Assembly (NCBI GenBank): GCA_048886685.1
Contig: JBHLKM010000017.1
Coordinates: forward strand, 36,407 to 100,406
DNA: 64,000 bases
DNA from: Candidatus Hodarchaeota archaeon
GTDB lineage: Archaea > Asgardarchaeota > Lokiarchaeia > Sigyniarchaeales > SOKP01
Reading direction: 5' to 3'
Shown: piece by piece, positions 51,235 through 63,667 of the stretch
How the letters are laid out: each line of letters begins with the position of its first letter
Position numbering within the stretch: position 1 is the stretch's first letter
The notes under the pieces: generated by a model
What the model was told of the DNA's origin: nothing
The model's database searches: none
Seen by the model: only the letters and a program-made list of their open reading frames with translations
Position numbers and translations under genes: made by a program

Positions 51235-52074
51235 TATTGAAGTTTATTAGATTTTTTAATTTTAAAGAAATATAAGAAGTAATTCGATTTTTGTGATGGT
51301 TTTTATTTATGAGTAGAATTAATTGATTCTTAATAAGGTTCGCTCTTATGAAAATGTTTCTTACGGATTTAATGTTTTTATGCATTATCATTAAATTTTT
51401 GTAATATTTTTAATAGTATATTATCAAAATTTCATTATTTTTAATAAAAATTAACAACTTTATCTGAGGTTAAATAAAAACTAACTTCTATATAAATATT
51501 TCGAAAATAATTTCCATTAATTAAGTGAAATTTAGAAAAGGTTTAGGTTTAGTTTTAAGTAAAAAATTTCGTAGAAAATTAAATTGATTTTATTCTTAAA
51601 TTTTAGGAGATAAATACAAATTGGATTAAGAATACCCACTTTATTTTATAATTGTTTTCGAAAATTACAGAATTATTTATAACGGAAAAACAATAAGATA
51701 TAAAAGAAAATATATGCTACAGCTTCGAATTATGAAAAAATAAAATTAATGCAACAACATTAATATACTCAAATTTATTAAAGATTCCATCACATTTACG
51801 AATTATGTATTAACTTCTAGGAATTAAACATATAATATAATAATAAGAGATTAAACCATCTTATATTTAATAAAAATTAAGTTCTCAAAATCCTATAAAT
51901 AATAATTCTCCCTTTTGAACTATATTCAAATTTATTTAAACTTATTAACTTGAATAGTTAATATTGAAATTAGAAATATTTAAATACAATATAAGTCTTT
52001 TATCGTATTTGAAAATATATGATAAATTTAATCTATTATAAATAATAATAAGAAAAAAAATGGAGATAAGAAAA

Positions 52075-52230
52075 ATGGGTTCGAAAAAAAAGGGAGGAAA
52101 GAAGAAATACGAGGAAGATGATGATTGGGATGATGATAACGAAGATGATGATGAAGATTGGGATGATGATGACGAAGATGATGATGATGAAGATTGGGAA
52201 GATTATGACAATTTTGAAAGAGATTATTGA
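52075..52230 (+). CDS. Unannotated 51-aa basic/acidic microprotein with three D-W repeats
   Basis: MGSKKKGGKKKYEEDDDWDDDNEDDDEDWDDDDEDDDDEDWEDYDNFERDY*; GGAG SD at 52062-52065; purine-rich coding island in AT-rich surroundings. Confidence 0.75.
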   Translation: MGSKKKGGKKKYEEDDDWDDDNEDDDEDWDDDDEDDDDEDWEDYDNFERDY

Positions 52231-55952: not shown

Positions 55953-57857
55953 TTAGATCCCTAATTTCTCTCTATTCTTTTCAATATGAACCAACATCGC
56001 ATCAACGGCTTGAATTGGATCAGTCTCAATATGTAAGATTCCACCAGTTATATCTTCTAAATCTTGAGTCAAAAGTTTAACTAGATTGGCACCTCCAGTT
56101 ACAGTAGGCACAGGATTGACATATGTATAAAGTCCATATGCTAAAGCGAATATTGCATCAATAGTGGCTTTTTGTTCCATATATTCTGGAGCTACGGCTA
56201 CTACAGGTAAATCTGGGATCGGAATATCACCAAGTGCGACAGAAATTGCACCTATCAAATCGGCAACTCTTCCTGTATCTGTACATGTCCCATAGCTAAG
56301 TACTGGTGGGATTCCCAATTTTTTACATATCGTTTTTAAGCCGGGACCTGCTAAATCTATTGCTTCTAGTGAACATAATCCTCCAACTTGTAAAGCACCA
56401 TTCCCGCATCCCATTGATAATACCAAAACATCTCTTTTGATTAATTCTTTAGCTATTTGAATTGTATGCACATCTTGTCCATAGTCTCTAAGAGTAGTGC
56501 AAGATATTAATCCAGCAACTCCTCGTATAGTACCTTTTTTAATAACTTCCAGTAATGGATCAAGTGCACCTCCTAGAGCTGCTAGAATGCTCTCACTTGA
56601 GAATCCAACAACAGCCTCATTCATAGCTAGTCCTGTTATTGGTTCAATACTTGCCTTTCTTTCTTTAAAGTTATCAATTGCTATTTGAAGAAGTTTCGCG
56701 GCTTGCTCTTCAGCTTTATCTGGTTTATAGTCTACTCTGTCAGTTATACCTTCAAAAGCAATAACTTCAGAGACAGGAATTAACTTAAATTTATATTTCT
56801 CAGCATATATTGGATCAATTGGCATACAACAATTCATATCACATATGAATGCATCAATGCAACCACTTCCCAAAACAGCTTCTTGCATAATCCAATTTCC
56901 CGTGAATCCATAAAAAACATCATCCATTTCCCATCTTTGTATCATTTCTTGTCCAGTCTCAATATTTGCGATAATTCTCAATCCTTTGGCACCAAATGCT
57001 TTCGCTTTATCTTGCCATTCAAGTCTTCTGGCAAGTTGGACCATTGCAAATCCTAAGAACGGTTCATGTCCATTTGGAAGTATATTTACATAATCTGGAT
57101 CTAATACGCCTAAGTTAACTCTCATTTTATGAGGTCTAGGAACATTAAACAGAATATCTTGAGTGAATTCATTGACAAGCTGACTTTGATATGCCATAGC
57201 GATCCCTAATCTCATTGCTTTAAGAGCTAGACTAGCATAATAACCATCAACATTTGTCAAGCAAGAGCTTGTGGAAAACATCATTTCACCATATAATCCA
57301 CCTGGGAAAATTCCTAATTTATCCCATACTTCTTGCCTTTCAGGTGGCGCTAATTTTTTCACTATTTGACTCTGTTCATCATAAGGTACATTAAAGTCCT
57401 CCTTTACAAAATGATATAATCTAAGTGCAATATCTTTTTCTGAACCGATTGTATCTAAGCCAAGACGCTCAGCAAAAGTTTTTAGTTTTTCAGGTTCAGA
57501 AATTTTAAACGGGGTTTTTCCCTCTACTGTAGCTTTTAAAGTTTTTAAAGTTGTTTCAGTGTGATAATGATATGTAGATGCCCCCATAACATTCCTAAGT
57601 AGCATCATACGCATTGCCATACCATCTGCAGTCATTCCACATACACCACGCTTATCTATTGATGAATCTGCTCTGCATGGGCCATTAGAACATAAATCAC
57701 AACGTGCACCTTTTAAACAAAAAGGACATCGTCTATCAGGAACTCCTCCAAATCCTTGTGCCTCAAATCGATCCCAGATTGTATTCATTCCATCTTTTTT
57801 GAGTTTCTCATATACTTTTTGAACAGATTTATGATAAGAAATTCTTTCATTTTCCAT
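55953..57857 (-). CDS. cooS: CooS/HCP-superfamily protein, divergent (clade D / CooS-V-like) Ni-CODH homolog
   Basis: CPFC....CDLCSNGPC, GVCG, NGHEP, SCTT, GCGN, YGTCTDTGR, PEYMEQKA; substitutions YHYH and IETGQE. Confidence 0.88.
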   Translation of the reverse strand: MENERISYHKSVQKVYEKLKKDGMNTIWDRFEAQGFGGVPDRRCPFCLKGARCDLCSNGPCRADSSIDKRGVCGMTADGMAMRMMLLRNVMGASTYHYHTETTLKTLKATVEGKTPFKISEPEKLKTFAERLGLDTIGSEKDIALRLYHFVKEDFNVPYDEQSQIVKKLAPPERQEVWDKLGIFPGGLYGEMMFSTSSCLTNVDGYYASLALKAMRLGIAMAYQSQLVNEFTQDILFNVPRPHKMRVNLGVLDPDYVNILPNGHEPFLGFAMVQLARRLEWQDKAKAFGAKGLRIIANIETGQEMIQRWEMDDVFYGFTGNWIMQEAVLGSGCIDAFICDMNCCMPIDPIYAEKYKFKLIPVSEVIAFEGITDRVDYKPDKAEEQAAKLLQIAIDNFKERKASIEPITGLAMNEAVVGFSSESILAALGGALDPLLEVIKKGTIRGVAGLISCTTLRDYGQDVHTIQIAKELIKRDVLVLSMGCGNGALQVGGLCSLEAIDLAGPGLKTICKKLGIPPVLSYGTCTDTGRVADLIGAISVALGDIPIPDLPVVAVAPEYMEQKATIDAIFALAYGLYTYVNPVPTVTGGANLVKLLTQDLEDITGGILHIETDPIQAVDAMLVHIEKNREKLGI

Positions 57858-58479: not shown

Positions 58480-59055
58480 TTAATATTCAATACCATATCG
58501 TGCAGTTAATCCTTGGGAGGAATAATAATGCTTTATCATTTTCATTTCAGTCACTAAATCAGCAAGTTCTTTAATTTTAGGATGCATCTTTGGACCCCCA
58601 GTAAGGATTAATTCTACCTTCTCCGGTTTATTTTTGATCAATTCTAATACAGGTTCGACAGGTATTACATTCATAGATATAGCAACACCAACTTCATCAA
58701 GAATAACAATATCATAATCATCGCTCATGATAATTTCCTTAGCAAAATCCAGTGCTTTCTTTCCTTCATCTTTATCAAACTTACTAGGTTCAGATATAAG
58801 TTCTGGGCTTCCAAATTGTTTCAAATCAAAATTAGAAATACTTTTAATAGCTTCTATTTCTCCATATTTATAATTCCCTTTCATAAATTGAATCATATAA
58901 ACCTTAAATCCATGCCCCGTGGCGCGCACACCTTGACCTATTGCAGCGGTTGTCTTGCCTATAGGCATTACTATCTAGTTATCTATAGCAATTTTACCCC
59001 GACCAAAATAAACTTGTACAAGACCAACTTTTAATCTTTTTCTATTTGAGCTCAT
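58480..59055 (-). CDS. cobO: Cob(I)yrinic acid a,c-diamide / cob(I)alamin adenosyltransferase, interrupted by a 33-nt insertion
   Basis: Exon 1 (59055-58994) MSSNRKRLKVGLVQVYFGRG(K) joined to exon 2 (58960-58480) GKTTAAIGQG.RA.GHG..V..IQFMKG, ILDEV, ELILTG, ADLVTEM...KH, GIEY gives a 180-aa BtuR/CobO. Confidence 0.92.
58961..58993 (-). other. Putative BHB/BHL-type mRNA intron in cobO
   Basis: 33-nt in-frame insert containing TAG, inside Walker A. Folds as 4-bp central helix GGGU/GCCU, 3-nt bulges AA|A and AU|A, and 8-bp intron stem AUUGCUAU/AUAGUAAU. Confidence 0.8.
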
Positions 59056-59125
59056 TTTTTTATTCCTATTAATTTATTATACTTTGAAATACTCTATCAT
59101 TTAATTATTTTTTAATACCTAAAGG

Positions 59126-59902
59126 TTGCGTCAAATGGGAAATTACGAAAATTTAGATAATCAACTCAATAAATATCTTAGATTAGCTACATTTCCGGTT
59201 GGCGTGAAATTACTTGAAAATTCTGAAGATTTGAATGCTATAAAATTCATAAAAAAACCAGATCATAAGATAGCGTTGTGCCAGATATTCAGTTATGCTA
59301 GATATTATGGATGGACTATGGGATGTAAAAAAGAAGATAATTTATGTCCTTTAGCAGAAATTACTGTAGGTTTCGAAAAGTCACATGCACTCTTCGAAGA
59401 GGGGGCATTTTTTATAGGAAGATATAATGAAACCAAAGAGGCAGCTAAGAAAACAACATCAACAATGCCTAAACTCACCTATGGGAAATACTCTGCTATA
59501 GTATCAGGAGCATTAAGTAGAATTGATTTCAAACCAGATCTAGTATTAATATGGGGTAACTCCTCTCAGATCATGAGGTTAATACAGGGATATTTATGGA
59601 AGAGAGGTGGAAGGATTTCAATGTCAACATTTTGTGATGGCGTATGCGCTGATACAATTTCAAATGCATTATTGACCGGAGAACTCCAAGTTGCGTTCCC
59701 TTGTCTAGGTGATCGTCGTTTTGGATTAGCAATGGATACTGACTTAATAGCATCCATACCATTTGAAATCCTAGAAGAAATTATTGAAGGTATGGAAAAA
59801 ACTCATAAAGCGGGAACACGATATCCAATTCCGTATCAAATTTCGACTCCTGAATTCTTTTTAAAACTGAAAAAACAACTAGGTAAGGTTAAAAAGAATT
59901 AA
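59126..59902 (+). CDS. DUF169 family protein
   Basis: PVGVKL, LCQ...AR..G, CP, PDLVLI.GN..Q.MRL, C, PCLGDRRF. Confidence 0.85.
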   Translation: MRQMGNYENLDNQLNKYLRLATFPVGVKLLENSEDLNAIKFIKKPDHKIALCQIFSYARYYGWTMGCKKEDNLCPLAEITVGFEKSHALFEEGAFFIGRYNETKEAAKKTTSTMPKLTYGKYSAIVSGALSRIDFKPDLVLIWGNSSQIMRLIQGYLWKRGGRISMSTFCDGVCADTISNALLTGELQVAFPCLGDRRFGLAMDTDLIASIPFEILEEIIEGMEKTHKAGTRYPIPYQISTPEFFLKLKKQLGKVKKN

Positions 59903-59947: not shown

Positions 59948-61675
59948 TTATTTTTTTCTCATATCTTTTGCTTGTGTTAAAAACTTATCTAAATTCTCTC
60001 TTATTTCAATTTTGTTAAATTTTCCAACACTAGTTCTAGGGATCTCATCTACGATTGCAACAAGTTTAGGAAGCATCCATTTGGTTATCTTACCTTTATC
60101 GACACCTTCGATTGTAAGAAATTCAATTAAATCTTGTTCAGTTTTATTAGAATTTGGTACAAATTTTACTATTGCCATGGGTATTTCTCCCCATACTTCA
60201 TCTGGGACACCAACAACCGTTGCTTCAAGAACAAATTCCGCCATAGCAGATAGATTTTCAAGTAATACGGTAGGGACCATTTCTGCTCCGCTTCTAATGA
60301 CATCTTTCATCCTATCTGCTATTACTATAAAATCCTCTTCATCAACATAAGCTAGATCTCCTGTATGAAACCACCCATCATACCATACATCAGCAGTTTT
60401 TTCAGGATTTTTATAATATTTTTCCATAACCCAAGGACCACGAATGACGATTTGACCAATAGTTTCATTATCATGCGGTACTGGTTTCCCATCTTCATCT
60501 ATAACCTCAACTTCAAGTCCAGGCATAGGCAAACCTGTCTTCACCCTCACTTCATCTAGCTTTTCTTTAGACCAGTCTCTCATGTACTTCTTAACAAATG
60601 CTCTGATCGTAGTTGGTGCTGTTTCTGTCATCCCATACCCAGAAGTTGCGGTAAATCCAGGAATCTTTTTTTCAACTTTGGCTTTTAATCCTAAAGGTAA
60701 TGCTCCGCCACCAACAGAAACCGATACCAGACTGCTTAAATCATATTTATCGAGATCTGGATATTCAATAAGTAAGGCTAAAATTGTTGGAACTACAGCA
60801 ACCGAGGTCACTTTTTCAGTTTGAACTAACTCACAAAAACCTTCTACTGTAAATGTACCAGGTAAAACCATTTTCACGGCAAGAAAGGTATAGATGAAAG
60901 GAGCACCCCAAGCATGAATATGAAATAACGGTGTAGTTACCATTGGAACGCTGTTTTCACCTAACGATTTATGAGTTGGATCATTAAGAAAAGTAGTGTA
61001 GGCAATCATATGCAGGGTAAATATATAAAGAGACCTATGGGTGAACATTGCACCTTTAGGAAGACCTGTAGTTCCAGTAGTATAGCAAAGTGTAGCATAA
61101 TTATGTTCATCTAAGTAAGGCCATTCGAAATTATCAGATTGCTGATTTAGTAATTCTTCATATTCATAAAGATTCTCAATTTTTGTATCTGGTAATCCCG
61201 GTTTATCAGACATATATATAAATTTTTCGACGGTATCTTTTATTTTATCATATGCTGATTCTAATAGTGGCAAAAGTACATCATCAAAAAATATTATTTT
61301 ATCTTCAGAGTGATTTATTGTATATGTTATATGATCAAGAGCAAGTCTTACGTTGATTGGATGTAATGTAGCTCCAATACAAGGAACTGCAAAATATAAT
61401 TCTAAATGTCTATGTGTATTGAGTGCCATTGTTGCGACACGATCGCCAGGTTCTCCAGGTCTCCCATGCTTTATATCCAAAGCCTTCAAAAGATTTGCTA
61501 AACGACACGTACGTTTATACCATTCAATCCAAGTAAACCGATGATATTCTCCAGTAATATGATTTCTATACACTACCCCAATCTCGTTAGGATATGTCTT
61601 TACGGGTCTTTTCATAAATGTTGTAAGTAATAGAGGATATTGAGAACTAAATTCAGGGAAGGGTCCATTAACCAT
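59948..61675 (-). CDS. Long-chain fatty-acid--CoA ligase (AMP-binding)
   Basis: YTTGTTGLPKG, GYGMTET, WFHTGD, DR.KD.I.SG, PRTSVGKF.K. Confidence 0.93.
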   Translation of the reverse strand: MVNGPFPEFSSQYPLLLTTFMKRPVKTYPNEIGVVYRNHITGEYHRFTWIEWYKRTCRLANLLKALDIKHGRPGEPGDRVATMALNTHRHLELYFAVPCIGATLHPINVRLALDHITYTINHSEDKIIFFDDVLLPLLESAYDKIKDTVEKFIYMSDKPGLPDTKIENLYEYEELLNQQSDNFEWPYLDEHNYATLCYTTGTTGLPKGAMFTHRSLYIFTLHMIAYTTFLNDPTHKSLGENSVPMVTTPLFHIHAWGAPFIYTFLAVKMVLPGTFTVEGFCELVQTEKVTSVAVVPTILALLIEYPDLDKYDLSSLVSVSVGGGALPLGLKAKVEKKIPGFTATSGYGMTETAPTTIRAFVKKYMRDWSKEKLDEVRVKTGLPMPGLEVEVIDEDGKPVPHDNETIGQIVIRGPWVMEKYYKNPEKTADVWYDGWFHTGDLAYVDEEDFIVIADRMKDVIRSGAEMVPTVLLENLSAMAEFVLEATVVGVPDEVWGEIPMAIVKFVPNSNKTEQDLIEFLTIEGVDKGKITKWMLPKLVAIVDEIPRTSVGKFNKIEIRENLDKFLTQAKDMRKK

Positions 61676-61939: not shown

Positions 61940-63667
61940 CTAATTGCTTTTCATATCTTTTGCTTTTGCCAGGAACGTATCCAAGTCTTTTCTAATTGCT
62001 ATTTTGTTAAATTTTCCAACACTTGTTCTAGGTATCTCATCTACAATTGCCACTAGTTTAGGAAGCATCCATTTAGTAATTTTTCCTTTATCCACACCTT
62101 CAACCGTAAGAAAATCAATTAGATCTTGTTCATTCTTATCTGAACCGGGAATAAGTTTTATTATAGCCATCGCTTTTTCGCCCCATACTTCATCTGGAAC
62201 TCCTACTACAGTAGCTTCGAGGACGAAATCAGCCATAGCAGCCAGATTTTCAAGAAGTACAGTTGGAACCATTTCAGCACCGCTTCTAATAATATCTGAC
62301 ATCCTATCTGCTATAACTATAAAGTCTTCCTCGTCAATCTTTGCCATATCCCCGGTATGAAACCAACCATTTCTCCAAACTTCTGCGGTTTTCTCAGGAT
62401 TCTTATAGTATTTCTCCATTACCCAAGGACCACGAATGACTATCTCCCCTAGAGTATTATCATCATGAGGAATAGGTTTTCCATTTTCATCTACAACTTC
62501 AATATCTAAACCTGGAACAGGTAGACCAGTTTTTACTCTTACCTCATCTAATTTCTCTTTAGGCCAATCGCTCATATATTTCTTTACGAATGCTGCAATC
62601 GTCGTAGGAGCGGTCTCAGTCATTCCATATCCTGAACTTGCTGTAAATCCTGGTAACTTCTTCTCGATCTTACTTTTTAATCCTAAGGGTAGTGCACCGC
62701 CACCTACAGCAACACTAACAAGACTACTTAAGTCGTATTTATCGAGATCCGGGTATTCAAGAAGTAACGCTAATATAGTTGGGACTACCCCTACAGTAGA
62801 AACCTTCTCTGTTTGAACAAGTTCGCAGAAACCTTGGACTGTAAACGTTCCTGGTAGCACAATCTTTACTCCCATAAAAACGTAGGAAAAAGGTGCTCCC
62901 CAACCATGAATATGAAATAGTGGGGTGATTATCATAGGAATCGTATTCTCACCTAGAAAGACACGAGCGGGATCGTTACTAAAAACAGTATAGGCTGCGA
63001 CGTGTATACACAATAAATAAATTGCTCTGTGGGTGAACATAGCCCCTTTTGGAAGCCCGGTAGTACCTGTTGTATAGCATAAAGTTGCGTAATTGTCTTC
63101 ACTCAAGTGAGGCCATTCGTATTCATCTGATTCAACTTTTAGTAATTCTTCATATTCATAGAGATTTTCTATCTTAGTATCAGGTAATCCCGGTTTATCA
63201 GACATATATACAAACATTTTGACAGTATCTTTTATATGGTCATAGATCCCCTCAACTAATCGAAGAAGTATATCATCAAAAAATAAAATTTTATCTTCCG
63301 CATGGTTTATAGTAAAAATGATGTGCTCAGGTGAGAGTCTTACATTGATTGTATGAAGCATTGCTCCACTACAAGGCGCCGCATAATAAATCTCTAAATG
63401 CCTATGAGTATTAAGCGCCATAGTTGCAACTCTATCTCCAGGTTTTCCAGGTTCTCCAGGATTTATATTTAATGTTTTTAAGGCATTTGCCAGACGACAT
63501 GTTCGTTTATACCATTCCATCCACGTAAATCTAAAATATTGCCCAGTAACCTGGTTTCTGTAAACCACACCAATCTCATTTGGATAAATCCTCACTGGTC
63601 TTTTCATAAAAGTTGTAAGGAGGAGTGGGTAATGAGAGCTATATTCTGGATAGGTTTTATTTACCAT
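61940..63667 (-). CDS. Long-chain fatty-acid--CoA ligase (tandem paralog)
   Basis: Same length (575 aa) and motifs as 59948-61675; colinear and highly similar. Confidence 0.93.
   Translation of the reverse strand: MVNKTYPEYSSHYPLLLTTFMKRPVRIYPNEIGVVYRNQVTGQYFRFTWMEWYKRTCRLANALKTLNINPGEPGKPGDRVATMALNTHRHLEIYYAAPCSGAMLHTINVRLSPEHIIFTINHAEDKILFFDDILLRLVEGIYDHIKDTVKMFVYMSDKPGLPDTKIENLYEYEELLKVESDEYEWPHLSEDNYATLCYTTGTTGLPKGAMFTHRAIYLLCIHVAAYTVFSNDPARVFLGENTIPMIITPLFHIHGWGAPFSYVFMGVKIVLPGTFTVQGFCELVQTEKVSTVGVVPTILALLLEYPDLDKYDLSSLVSVAVGGGALPLGLKSKIEKKLPGFTASSGYGMTETAPTTIAAFVKKYMSDWPKEKLDEVRVKTGLPVPGLDIEVVDENGKPIPHDDNTLGEIVIRGPWVMEKYYKNPEKTAEVWRNGWFHTGDMAKIDEEDFIVIADRMSDIIRSGAEMVPTVLLENLAAMADFVLEATVVGVPDEVWGEKAMAIIKLIPGSDKNEQDLIDFLTVEGVDKGKITKWMLPKLVAIVDEIPRTSVGKFNKIAIRKDLDTFLAKAKDMKSN

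What the first reader, a model, noticed from the sequence alone, without database searches (positions are those of the whole stretch)
58961..58993. Candidate bulge-helix-bulge mRNA intron splitting the Walker A motif of cobO in an Asgard archaeon
Seen: from ATG 59055 the minus strand reads MSSNRKRLKVGLVQVYFGRGK-IAIDN*IVMPI-GKTTAAIGQG. Removing exactly 33 nt restores YFGRGKGKTTAA, the canonical BtuR/CobO P-loop (GxGKGKTT), and an otherwise intact 180-aa gene. The pre-mRNA is ...UUUGGUCG[GGGU]AA|A(AUUGCUAU)AGAUAACUAG(AUAGUAAU)[GCCU]AU|AGGCAAG. It gives a 4-bp central helix (G.U, G-C, G-C, U.G), an 8-bp intron stem, and two 3-nt unpaired segments. Cutting each after its 2nd nt reproduces the only junction that fits both the structure and the protein motif. 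The exon-exon helix is relaxed (GUC/GGC with one unpaired G), so the motif is HBh'/BHL rather than strict hBHBh'. Established: this geometry is what archaeal splicing endonuclease (EndA) plus RtcB ligase process in tRNA/rRNA, and the classic archaeal mRNA example is the short cbf5 intron of Crenarchaeota. Inference: EndA-type splicing of a metabolic mRNA in Lokiarchaeia, with splicing required for expression because the intron carries a stop. I do not know of this being described for cobO. Annotation pipelines would miss it by calling a truncated ORF from the intron's internal ATG, so more such introns may be hidden genome-wide.
Basis: partly seen in the sequence, partly recalled or inferred. 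Interest (0 to 1): 0.96.

Follow-up and report, generated by a model that had tools for sequence, protein, structure and literature searches.

The report
Endonuclease-spread mini-intron in Asgard cobO
The only vitamin-B12-activating gene (cobO) of this Asgard archaeon is split by a 33-base insert shaped like the introns that archaea cut out of tRNAs. Related genomes indicate that it is spliced out of the mRNA and that it was carried in by a selfish DNA-cutting-enzyme cassette, which this genome no longer has.

Summary
Confirmed. A 33-nt stop-containing insert (58993-58961, minus strand) splits the Walker A codons of the genome's only cobO. Same-site inserts of 29-33 nt occur in 20 of 133 family genomes plus metagenome contigs. 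All break the frame. One cut register restores GRGKGKTT in 33/33 distinct junctions and gives bulge-helix-bulge geometry in 31/33. The stem covaries, both exons stay under purifying selection, and the host encodes a two-subunit EndA and RtcB. Splicing is very likely (about 0.88) but not shown, because no RNA run was available.

In 14/44 carriers and 0/71 non-carriers, a free-standing LAGLIDADG gene sits upstream. The layout is orphan old exon 1 | nuclease | new promoter, new exon 1, intron. This block is near-identical between hosts with divergent exon 2. This genome has a host/cassette mosaic exon 1 and no such nuclease; a sister cassette persists at a GH38 gene.

In print I found only cbf5 and one Haloferax 5'UTR intron. 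This scan noted the cobO intron before in other genomes, and nuclease-intron cassettes at other genes.

The parts
58994..59055 (-). cobO exon 1 (62 nt, 20 codons plus AA of the Lys codon). A mosaic: host-type 5' part and cassette-type 3' part
   Evidence: pN/pS 0.18 in carriers vs 0.20 in non-carriers
59033..59043 (-). 11-nt block shared by the old and the new exon 1; inferred crossover interval between host-type and cassette-type sequence
   Evidence: match to the orphan old exon 1 of L044 ends here, and a near-perfect match (1 mismatch in 51 nt) to the new exon 1 of L044 starts here
58961..58993 (-). 33-nt HBh'-type intron
58996..58999 (-). 5' strand of the 4-bp central helix (exonic GGGU)
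   Evidence: the Arg codon ends in G in 39/43 carriers vs 12/73 non-carriers
58993..58995 (-). bulge 1 (AA|A), predicted 5' splice site after the second nt
   Evidence: register test
58967..58992 (-). intron hairpin: 8-bp stem and 10-nt loop holding the in-frame TAG (58977-58975)
   Evidence: 5 of 8 pairs show two-sided changes across 33 junctions
58963..58966 (-). 3' strand of the central helix (intronic GCCU); overlaps the internal ATG at 58968-58966 that ORF callers use
58960..58962 (-). bulge 2 (AU|A), predicted 3' splice site after the second nt
58480..58960 (-). cobO exon 2 (CobA/CobO/BtuR, PF02572); only copy in the genome
   Evidence: dN/dS 0.05-0.09 against the nearest carriers
59056..59134 (.). 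host-type intergenic/promoter region shared with the divergent DUF169 gene. In nuclease-bearing relatives this region, the old exon 1 and about 1.4 kb of cassette lie between DUF169 and the new cobO start
   Evidence: 42/44 match to the host-type motif vs 23/44 to the cassette-type motif
59135..59902 (+). DUF169 gene, ancestral upstream neighbour; marks the left flank of the cassette site

Best explanation
The insert is a functional tRNA-type (HBh') intron in cobO mRNA. The host's (alpha-beta)2 splicing endonuclease EndA cuts after the second nt of each bulge and RtcB joins the exons, rebuilding the Lys codon of GxGKGKTT (inferred). The intron reached this lineage as part of a selfish cassette: a free-standing two-motif LAGLIDADG gene, a new promoter, a replacement exon 1 and the intron. 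The cassette integrates at the Tyr-Phe/Gly codons and leaves the old exon 1 as an orphan (layout shown in relatives). Most likely the nuclease cuts intron-less cobO across the Walker A codons, and the intron interrupts that site so the cassette's rebuilt gene is immune, while host splicing keeps it working (inferred). In this genome the nuclease is absent, either looped out by recombination between old and new exon 1 or never copied in a short conversion tract. That leaves a mosaic exon 1 and an orphan intron.
For: Splicing: inserts of 29, 30, 31, 32 and 33 nt at one site, all ending the unspliced frame within 10 codons. The register test gives protein 33/33 and geometry 31/33, and geometry 0/33 at every other shift. 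96.7% of cells pair vs 32-59% for slid controls, with 5 pairs changed on both sides. dN/dS is 0.049 and 0.114 in two carrier clades vs 0.060 and 0.095 in non-carriers. Exon 1 pN/pS is 0.18 vs 0.20, while orphan old exon-1 copies carry stops. cobO is single-copy, PduO was not found, and three MM-CoA-mutase-family genes are present. Two EndA paralogues (one with the Tyr/His/Lys triad, one lacking the His, by inspection) and RtcB are present. The single uL11 and purA genes carry similar inserts. Mobility: at least 19 state changes on the exon-2 tree, and carrier monophyly is rejected (p-AU 0.0002). A LAGLIDADG gene lies upstream in 14/44 carriers vs 0/71 non-carriers. An orphan exon 1 occurs in 16/46 carriers vs 0/73 non-carriers. 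Nuclease, exon 1 and intron are 89-100% identical between hosts whose exon 2 is 78-81% identical. The same layout occurs at a GH38 gene in this genome.
Against: No spliced transcript, circular intron or junction peptide was observed. The exon-exon helix is absent or weak, and two junctions have only 3/4 central pairs. Nuclease activity and target are untested, and no cognate nuclease was found in this assembly. The phylogenetically independent pair test of the nuclease-intron link never goes the wrong way but has too few pairs to be significant (median p 0.25). The metagenome carriers were selected by a pattern, so the 14/44 figure is not an unbiased frequency; among genomes alone it is 3/20 vs 0/71.
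Confidence: 0.78

Rival explanations
1. The intron is spliced as proposed, but it spreads passively by ordinary homologous recombination or is old and repeatedly lost; the nuclease is a later hitch-hiker at the same site.
For: 30 of 44 carriers, including this genome, have no nuclease beside the gene. Precise loss through gene conversion would also give a patchy tree. The independent-pairs test is not significant.
Against: 30 of 46 carriers show a cassette footprint (nuclease 14, orphan exon 1 without nuclease 8, cassette-type promoter alone 8). No non-carrier has the nuclease or an orphan exon 1. The high-identity block ends within about 12-24 nt of the intron on the exon-2 side.
Confidence: 0.12
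2. No RNA splicing: the ribosome skips or reads through the insert (translational bypassing as in T4 gene 60 or yeast byps elements, or stop readthrough).
For: The insert is a hairpin with a stop. In some alleles the codon before exon 2 is a Lys codon matching the AAA take-off codon. In this genome the insert is in frame.
Against: 13 of 32 distinct junctions are frameshifting, so readthrough fails. Take-off and landing codons do not match in this genome (AAA/ATA) or in G035 (AAT/AGA), where only a cut inside the codons yields Lys. The stop lies 4-7 codons into the insert, not next to the take-off codon. The exon-intron helix and exact 3-nt bulges are conserved, which bypassing does not need (knowledge of gene 60 and byps is from memory).
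Confidence: 0.05
3. The working product is the 162-aa protein started at the ATG inside the insert, and exon 1 is irrelevant.
For: All 32 distinct junctions have an ATG/GTG/TTG in frame with exon 2 at the same place.
Against: That codon is forced by the base pairs (U closes the stem, G pairs in the central helix). The product would lack the first strand and the GxGK half of the P-loop, which aligns to Salmonella CobA. Exon 1 is under the same purifying selection as in intron-less genes.
Confidence: 0.03
4. cobO is a recent pseudogene and the hairpin is incidental.
For: No expression data exist.
Against: Carrier clades with mean dS up to about 0.9 keep dN/dS near 0.05 with no other lesion. The stem covaries. 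The single uL11 gene is split in the same way.
Confidence: 0.02

Closest known systems
BHB intron of cbf5 pre-mRNA in Sulfolobales and Desulfurococcales (Watanabe 2002; Yokobori 2009, PMC2738675)
   Same: Short intron (16-44 bp there, 29-33 here) in a codon of a conserved functional motif, often a relaxed BHB, host with hetero-oligomeric EndA, patchy gain and loss.
   Different: Different gene and phylum (Promethearchaeota). Several mRNAs per genome are affected here. No nuclease partner is reported for cbf5, whose origin the paper calls unclear. cbf5 splicing is shown by cDNA; cobO splicing is not.
HVO_1309 5'UTR BHB intron of Haloferax volcanii (Schwarz 2020, PMC7714728)
   Same: EndA substrate in an mRNA.
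   Different: Lies in the untranslated leader and does not break a reading frame.
Collaborative and trans homing in phages (review PMC2988022; F-CphI with the psbA intron of S-PM2 is from earlier scan notes and memory)
   Same: A free-standing homing endonuclease paired with an ORF-less intron at a conserved site, with co-conversion of flanking exon sequence.
   Different: The intron here is a 30-nt host-enzyme-spliced BHB intron, not a group I ribozyme. It is chromosomal and archaeal, and the cassette duplicates and replaces the gene's 5' end.
WHO elements of Torulaspora and Lachancea (Coughlan 2020, PMC7282813)
   Same: LAGLIDADG-type element that homes into a conserved metabolic gene and replaces one end of it, leaving fragments of the old end.
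   Different: WHO replaces the 3' end and has no intron. This cassette replaces the 5' end with promoter and carries an intron. Pfam shows no Hint or zinc-finger domain here.
Archaeal rRNA BHB introns with homing endonuclease ORFs in Thermoproteales (Jay and Inskeep 2015, PMC4496867)
   Same: Archaeal introns linked to homing endonucleases, with short ORF-less versions.
   Different: There the nuclease lies inside the intron and the host is rRNA. Here it lies outside, upstream, on the opposite strand of a protein gene.

Membership tests
Archaeal EndA-spliced (BHB) introns | 4-bp central helix between exon and intron | tested here: met
   4/4 pairs here; 31/33 junctions have 4/4 and the other two 3/4
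Archaeal EndA-spliced (BHB) introns | two 3-nt bulges, with cuts after the second nt giving the correct mature RNA | tested here: met
   only shift 0 gives the geometry, and it restores GRGKGKTT in 33/33
Archaeal EndA-spliced (BHB) introns | at least one flanking helix (h or h') | tested here: met
   intron helix 7-8 of 8 pairs in all junctions, with covariation; HBh' counts as a canonical class in bioRxiv 10.64898/2026.10.13.758758
Strict hBHBh' motif | contiguous exon-exon helix next to the central helix | tested here: not met
   the flanking exon bases do not pair without a slip
Archaeal EndA-spliced (BHB) introns | host encodes EndA and an RNA ligase | tested here: met
   two EndA paralogues and RtcB
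Archaeal EndA-spliced (BHB) introns | spliced RNA in vivo, or cleavage by EndA in vitro | not testable with these tools
   no RNA run was listed
Group I / group II self-splicing introns | catalytic core of hundreds of nt | tested here: not met
   33 nt; no Rfam match
Collaborative homing (free-standing nuclease plus ORF-less intron) | free-standing homing endonuclease gene linked to the intron allele | tested here: met
   14/44 carriers, 0/71 non-carriers; PF14528 and two motifs with acidic catalytic positions; absent beside this genome's own cobO
Collaborative homing (free-standing nuclease plus ORF-less intron) | co-conversion of flanking exon sequence | tested here: met
   carrier pairs that share an intron: exon 1 identity 0.91, first 12 nt of exon 2 0.91, rest 0.72; non-carrier pairs 0.74, 0.82, 0.73
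Collaborative homing (free-standing nuclease plus ORF-less intron) | nuclease cuts the intron-less allele and spares the intron allele | not testable with these tools
   needs a cleavage assay
WHO-like gene-end-replacing elements | cassette supplies a replacement gene end and leaves the old end as an orphan | tested here: met
   orphan exon 1 in 16/46 carriers and 0/73 non-carriers; it is the 5' end here and the 3' end in WHO
WHO-like gene-end-replacing elements | intein-zinc finger fusion protein | tested here: not met
   Pfam finds only LAGLIDADG_3
Programmed translational bypassing (T4 gene 60, byps) | matching take-off and landing codons with an adjacent stop | tested here: not met
   AAA/ATA here and AAT/AGA in G035; the stop is 4-7 codons into the insert

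The most novel reading that the evidence does not exclude
Lokiarchaeia host a distinct class of selfish element: a free-standing LAGLIDADG cassette that replaces a gene's promoter and first exon and makes its rebuilt copy immune to its own nuclease with a 30-nt intron that the host's tRNA-splicing enzymes remove. Nuclease loss then leaves orphan introns, and repeated cycles have seeded many spliced mRNA introns in conserved motifs of housekeeping genes in close prokaryotic relatives of eukaryotes.
Probability: 0.6. Interest if true: 0.93.

Novelty: new variant of a known kind. Interest (0 to 1): 0.86.

Why it matters
The papers I could search report EndA-type mRNA introns in archaea only for cbf5 and one Haloferax 5'UTR. 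A 2026 preprint says how Asgard BHB introns arrive remains open. This locus gives a spliced-intron candidate in an Asgard metabolic gene with strong comparative support. It also gives a concrete route of arrival with intermediate stages visible in relatives: full cassette, broken nuclease, nuclease deleted, mosaic exon. Both claims can be tested with simple assays. It also means that gene callers truncate cobO, uL11, purA and PFK in these genomes, so metabolic and phylogenomic inventories of Lokiarchaeia carry hidden errors.

Tried and rejected
Sequencing runs: no RNA holder listed; this is no evidence either way. Logan contigs of four DNA runs show the insert in one run and intron-less relatives in others, nothing on expression. 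A de novo genome-wide BHB scan was not better than wrong-bulge controls (18 vs 9-14 candidates) and its coding filter dropped cobO itself, so it gives no intron count; it did recover purA (two earlier attempts failed). No second copy of the intron and no matching tRNA intron in the genome by blastn-short, so copying from a tRNA is unsupported. No long, nuclease-containing version of this intron among the 10 genome hits; no hit in viral contigs. The AlphaFold model of the nuclease was weak in the nuclease half (mean pLDDT 66, pTM 0.46). Foldseek gave no match at E<=0.001; LAGLIDADG maturases ranked first at E 0.06. The family call therefore rests on Pfam, the motifs, and an HMM hit to I-AniI at E 2e-4. 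The independent-pairs test was underpowered. No LAGLIDADG gene within 1.5 kb of the uL11 loci fetched. The sigma-70 promoter scan is uninformative for an archaeon. Literature searches found no report of a cobO intron or of Asgard mRNA BHB introns; the library lacks most subscription journals, and Yokobori 2009 notes that other archaeal mRNA introns had been predicted in papers I did not read. Rows left out of the trees: 7 truncated genes, 3 loci my pattern did not parse, 8 chance pattern hits outside cobO and 4 duplicate loci.

Full report
Observation. The minus strand from ATG 59055 reads 20 codons, then an insert with an in-frame TAG (58977-58975), then the rest of a CobA/CobO/BtuR protein. 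Among frame-preserving deletions, only a 33-nt one restores GKGKTT, in two possible registers. The register 58993-58961 gives a 4-bp exon-intron helix, two 3-nt bulges and an 8-bp intron stem. Shuffled inserts reach this geometry at 2e-5. The exon-exon helix is weak, and RNAfold ties this fold with an alternative. A separately assembled contig matches across the insert without differences. Pfam reads through the one TAG from profile position 3 to 172 and finds no other copy. An intron-less orthologue aligns from residue 8 to Salmonella CobA, P-loop included. Genome records carrying the same intron are titled Promethearchaeota.

Relatives. Of 30 congeneric cobO loci first fetched, 4 had an insert at this site. 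A pattern search found it in 20 of 133 genomes of the family, in four genera; two hits outside the family were chance. It also found 29 cobO loci among 35 metagenome hits. The 49 carrier loci give 32-33 distinct junctions of 29, 30, 31, 32 and 33 nt. Every one ends the unspliced frame within 10 codons, and 13 of 32 are frameshifting. Cutting after the second nt of each bulge restores GRGKGKTT in 33/33 and gives full geometry in 31/33; no other shift gives the geometry even once. The G035/G225 allele settles the register, because only that cut yields Lys. Of the cells, 96.7% pair, against 32-59% for slid partners, and 5 stem pairs change on both sides (relatedness inflates the shuffle control). 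The silent position of the Arg codon that pairs with the intron is G in 39/43 carriers and 12/73 non-carriers; part of this is co-conversion.

The gene is alive. Median dN/dS is 0.049 in the clade of this genome and 0.114 in the frameshifting 29-nt clade, against 0.060 and 0.095 in non-carriers of the same genera. Exon 1 alone shows pN/pS 0.18 against 0.20, which makes sense only if it is joined to exon 2. The genome has no PduO hit and three MM-CoA-mutase-family genes, which by established knowledge need adenosylcobalamin. It encodes two EndA paralogues, one with the Tyr/His/Lys triad and one without the His by inspection, and RtcB. Hetero-oligomeric EndA is the type linked to relaxed motifs and to cbf5 splicing (PMC2738675; PMC12397907). 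Following leads from earlier scan notes, I confirmed similar inserts in this genome: uL11 (35 nt, frameshifting, single copy, 3/4 central pairs, 6-bp exon helix, weak intron stem), purA (30 nt, 4/4) and PFK (31 nt with 4/4 but a weak intron stem; 30 nt with 3/4). A split universal ribosomal protein gene argues strongly that the cell removes such inserts. Splicing itself is inferred: no RNA run was listed. I put it at about 0.88.

The intron is mobile. On a tree of exon 2 without the junction region, intron state changes at least 19 times and carrier monophyly is rejected (p-AU 0.0002). Several carriers have intron-less sisters at bootstrap 100. Pairs that share an intron but have distant exon 2 are 0.91 identical in exon 1 and 0.91 in the first 12 nt of exon 2, then 0.72-0.74. 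Non-carrier pairs give 0.74, 0.82 and 0.73. This holds across genera: this genome and a g28 carrier match at 38/41 nt of exon 1 but only 70% downstream.

The vehicle. A 411-433-aa ORF with two LAGLIDADG motifs (PF14528, E 1.7e-8 and 2.5e-9; HMM hit to I-AniI) lies divergently upstream of cobO in 14 of 44 carriers and 0 of 71 non-carriers. Among genomes alone it is 3/20 against 0/71 (Fisher p 0.009, inflated by kinship). The independent-pairs test never runs the wrong way but is underpowered. The layout is: DUF169, host promoter, the old exon 1 cut off after ...VQVYF, the nuclease on the opposite strand, a new promoter, a new exon 1, the intron, exon 2. Orphan old exons occur in 16/46 carriers and 0/73 non-carriers, and several have stops. 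Eight nuclease-less carriers keep the orphan 127 nt upstream, and eight more keep only the cassette-type promoter. Nuclease, exon 1 and intron travel together: L047 and L002 are 96, 100 and 100% identical there but 78% in exon 2; L049 and L054 are 90, 98, 100 and 81%. Some nuclease copies are broken, as expected from the homing life cycle.

This genome. It has the host promoter and the host 5' end of exon 1 up to the shared block 59043-59033. After that it matches the cassette's exon 1 with 1 mismatch in 51 nt. No cognate nuclease was found in the assembly; the two related ORFs (38% and 29% identical) sit at other loci. The simplest reading is loop-out of the nuclease between the two exon-1 repeats. 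A short conversion tract that never copied the nuclease would look the same. The earlier stage survives on contig C20: an intact 392-aa LAGLIDADG gene lies between an orphan 5' fragment with a stop and a new first exon plus 30-nt BHB intron of a GH38 gene. Relatives carry the same GH38 intron beside this nuclease.

Mechanism, shown and inferred. Shown: the insert, its structure and covariation, selection on both exons, host splicing genes, the cassette layout, block transfer and the mosaic exon. Inferred: EndA cleavage and RtcB ligation in vivo; that the nuclease targets the intron-less Walker A codons (the cassette boundary lies 9-11 nt upstream of the splice site); and that the intron gives immunity, consistent with no nuclease being seen without it.

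Comparison and verdict. It works like the cbf5 intron for removal, like phage collaborative homing for spread, and like yeast WHO elements for gene-end replacement. It meets all testable defining features of a BHB intron (HBh' class) and is not a member of the WHO family. I found no paper on a cobO intron or on this combination in archaea. This scan had already noted the cobO intron in other genomes and nuclease-exon-intron blocks at other genes. Those notes are not independent evidence, and none retrieved tied the nuclease to cobO. New variant of a known kind; interest 0.86.

Noticed in passing
L209:900-2620 (G000:C20:41073-42793): A second cassette in this genome with the nuclease intact: a GH38 gene with a 30-nt BHB intron after its HWDRE codons, a divergent 392-aa LAGLIDADG gene, and an orphan old first exon with a stop on the far side.
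   Followed up: yes
L165 (G000:C1:204867-204901, +): The single uL11 gene has a 35-nt frameshifting insert. In the genus, 25 of 47 genomes with a match have a split or truncated uL11 N-terminal domain, at about three positions; I read the inserts at eight loci.
   Followed up: partly
L166 (G000:C2:178230-178201, -) and L167 (G000:C16, near 51761 and 51445, -): purA carries a 30-nt insert in the catalytic Asp codon, and PFK carries 31-nt and 30-nt inserts, all with BHB-like geometry.
   Followed up: partly
L002, L015, L050, L068, L080, L081 junctions: In one intron subfamily the first 9 nt of the intron match the start of exon 2 after its Gly-Lys codons at 7-8 of 9 positions. The intron may have been born by local duplication plus fold-back of host sequence. 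This genome's intron matches at only 2 of 9.
   Followed up: partly
L044:1761-3029 (-), residues 1-190: The nuclease has an N-terminal all-helical region modelled with high confidence (pLDDT about 80-90) but with no Pfam or PDB match; related proteins occur in 75 of 133 family genomes, some in frames over 1000 aa.
   Followed up: partly
G000:C16:73627-74634 (+): A further two-motif LAGLIDADG ORF; its neighbours were not checked for an intron or an orphan exon.
   Followed up: no
L003, L004, L008, L018, L021, L068, L075, L083 (cobO 5' ends): Several cobO orthologues have no ATG/GTG/TTG at the expected start and begin at an Ile codon, suggesting ATT initiation.
   Followed up: no
L163 (JBHLQA010000019.1): The record is titled Candidatus Odinarchaeota, yet its cobO junction is identical to that of G225 in this genome's genus; probably a label mismatch.
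   Followed up: no
window 55953-57857 (-): Prismane/CODH-family gene with IETG where CCTG is usual; earlier scan notes call such genes CooS-V-like.
   Followed up: no
window 59948-61675 and 61940-63667 (-): Two tandem, similar 575-aa genes that look like acyl-CoA ligases by their sequence motifs.
   Followed up: no
window 52060-52230 (+): A 56-aa ORF with a basic head and a long Asp/Glu-rich tandem repeat.
   Followed up: no
whole genome: ARAGORN finds only 33 tRNA genes, many with introns at non-canonical positions, and several isotypes are missing; this fits multi-intron tRNAs escaping detection.
   Followed up: no
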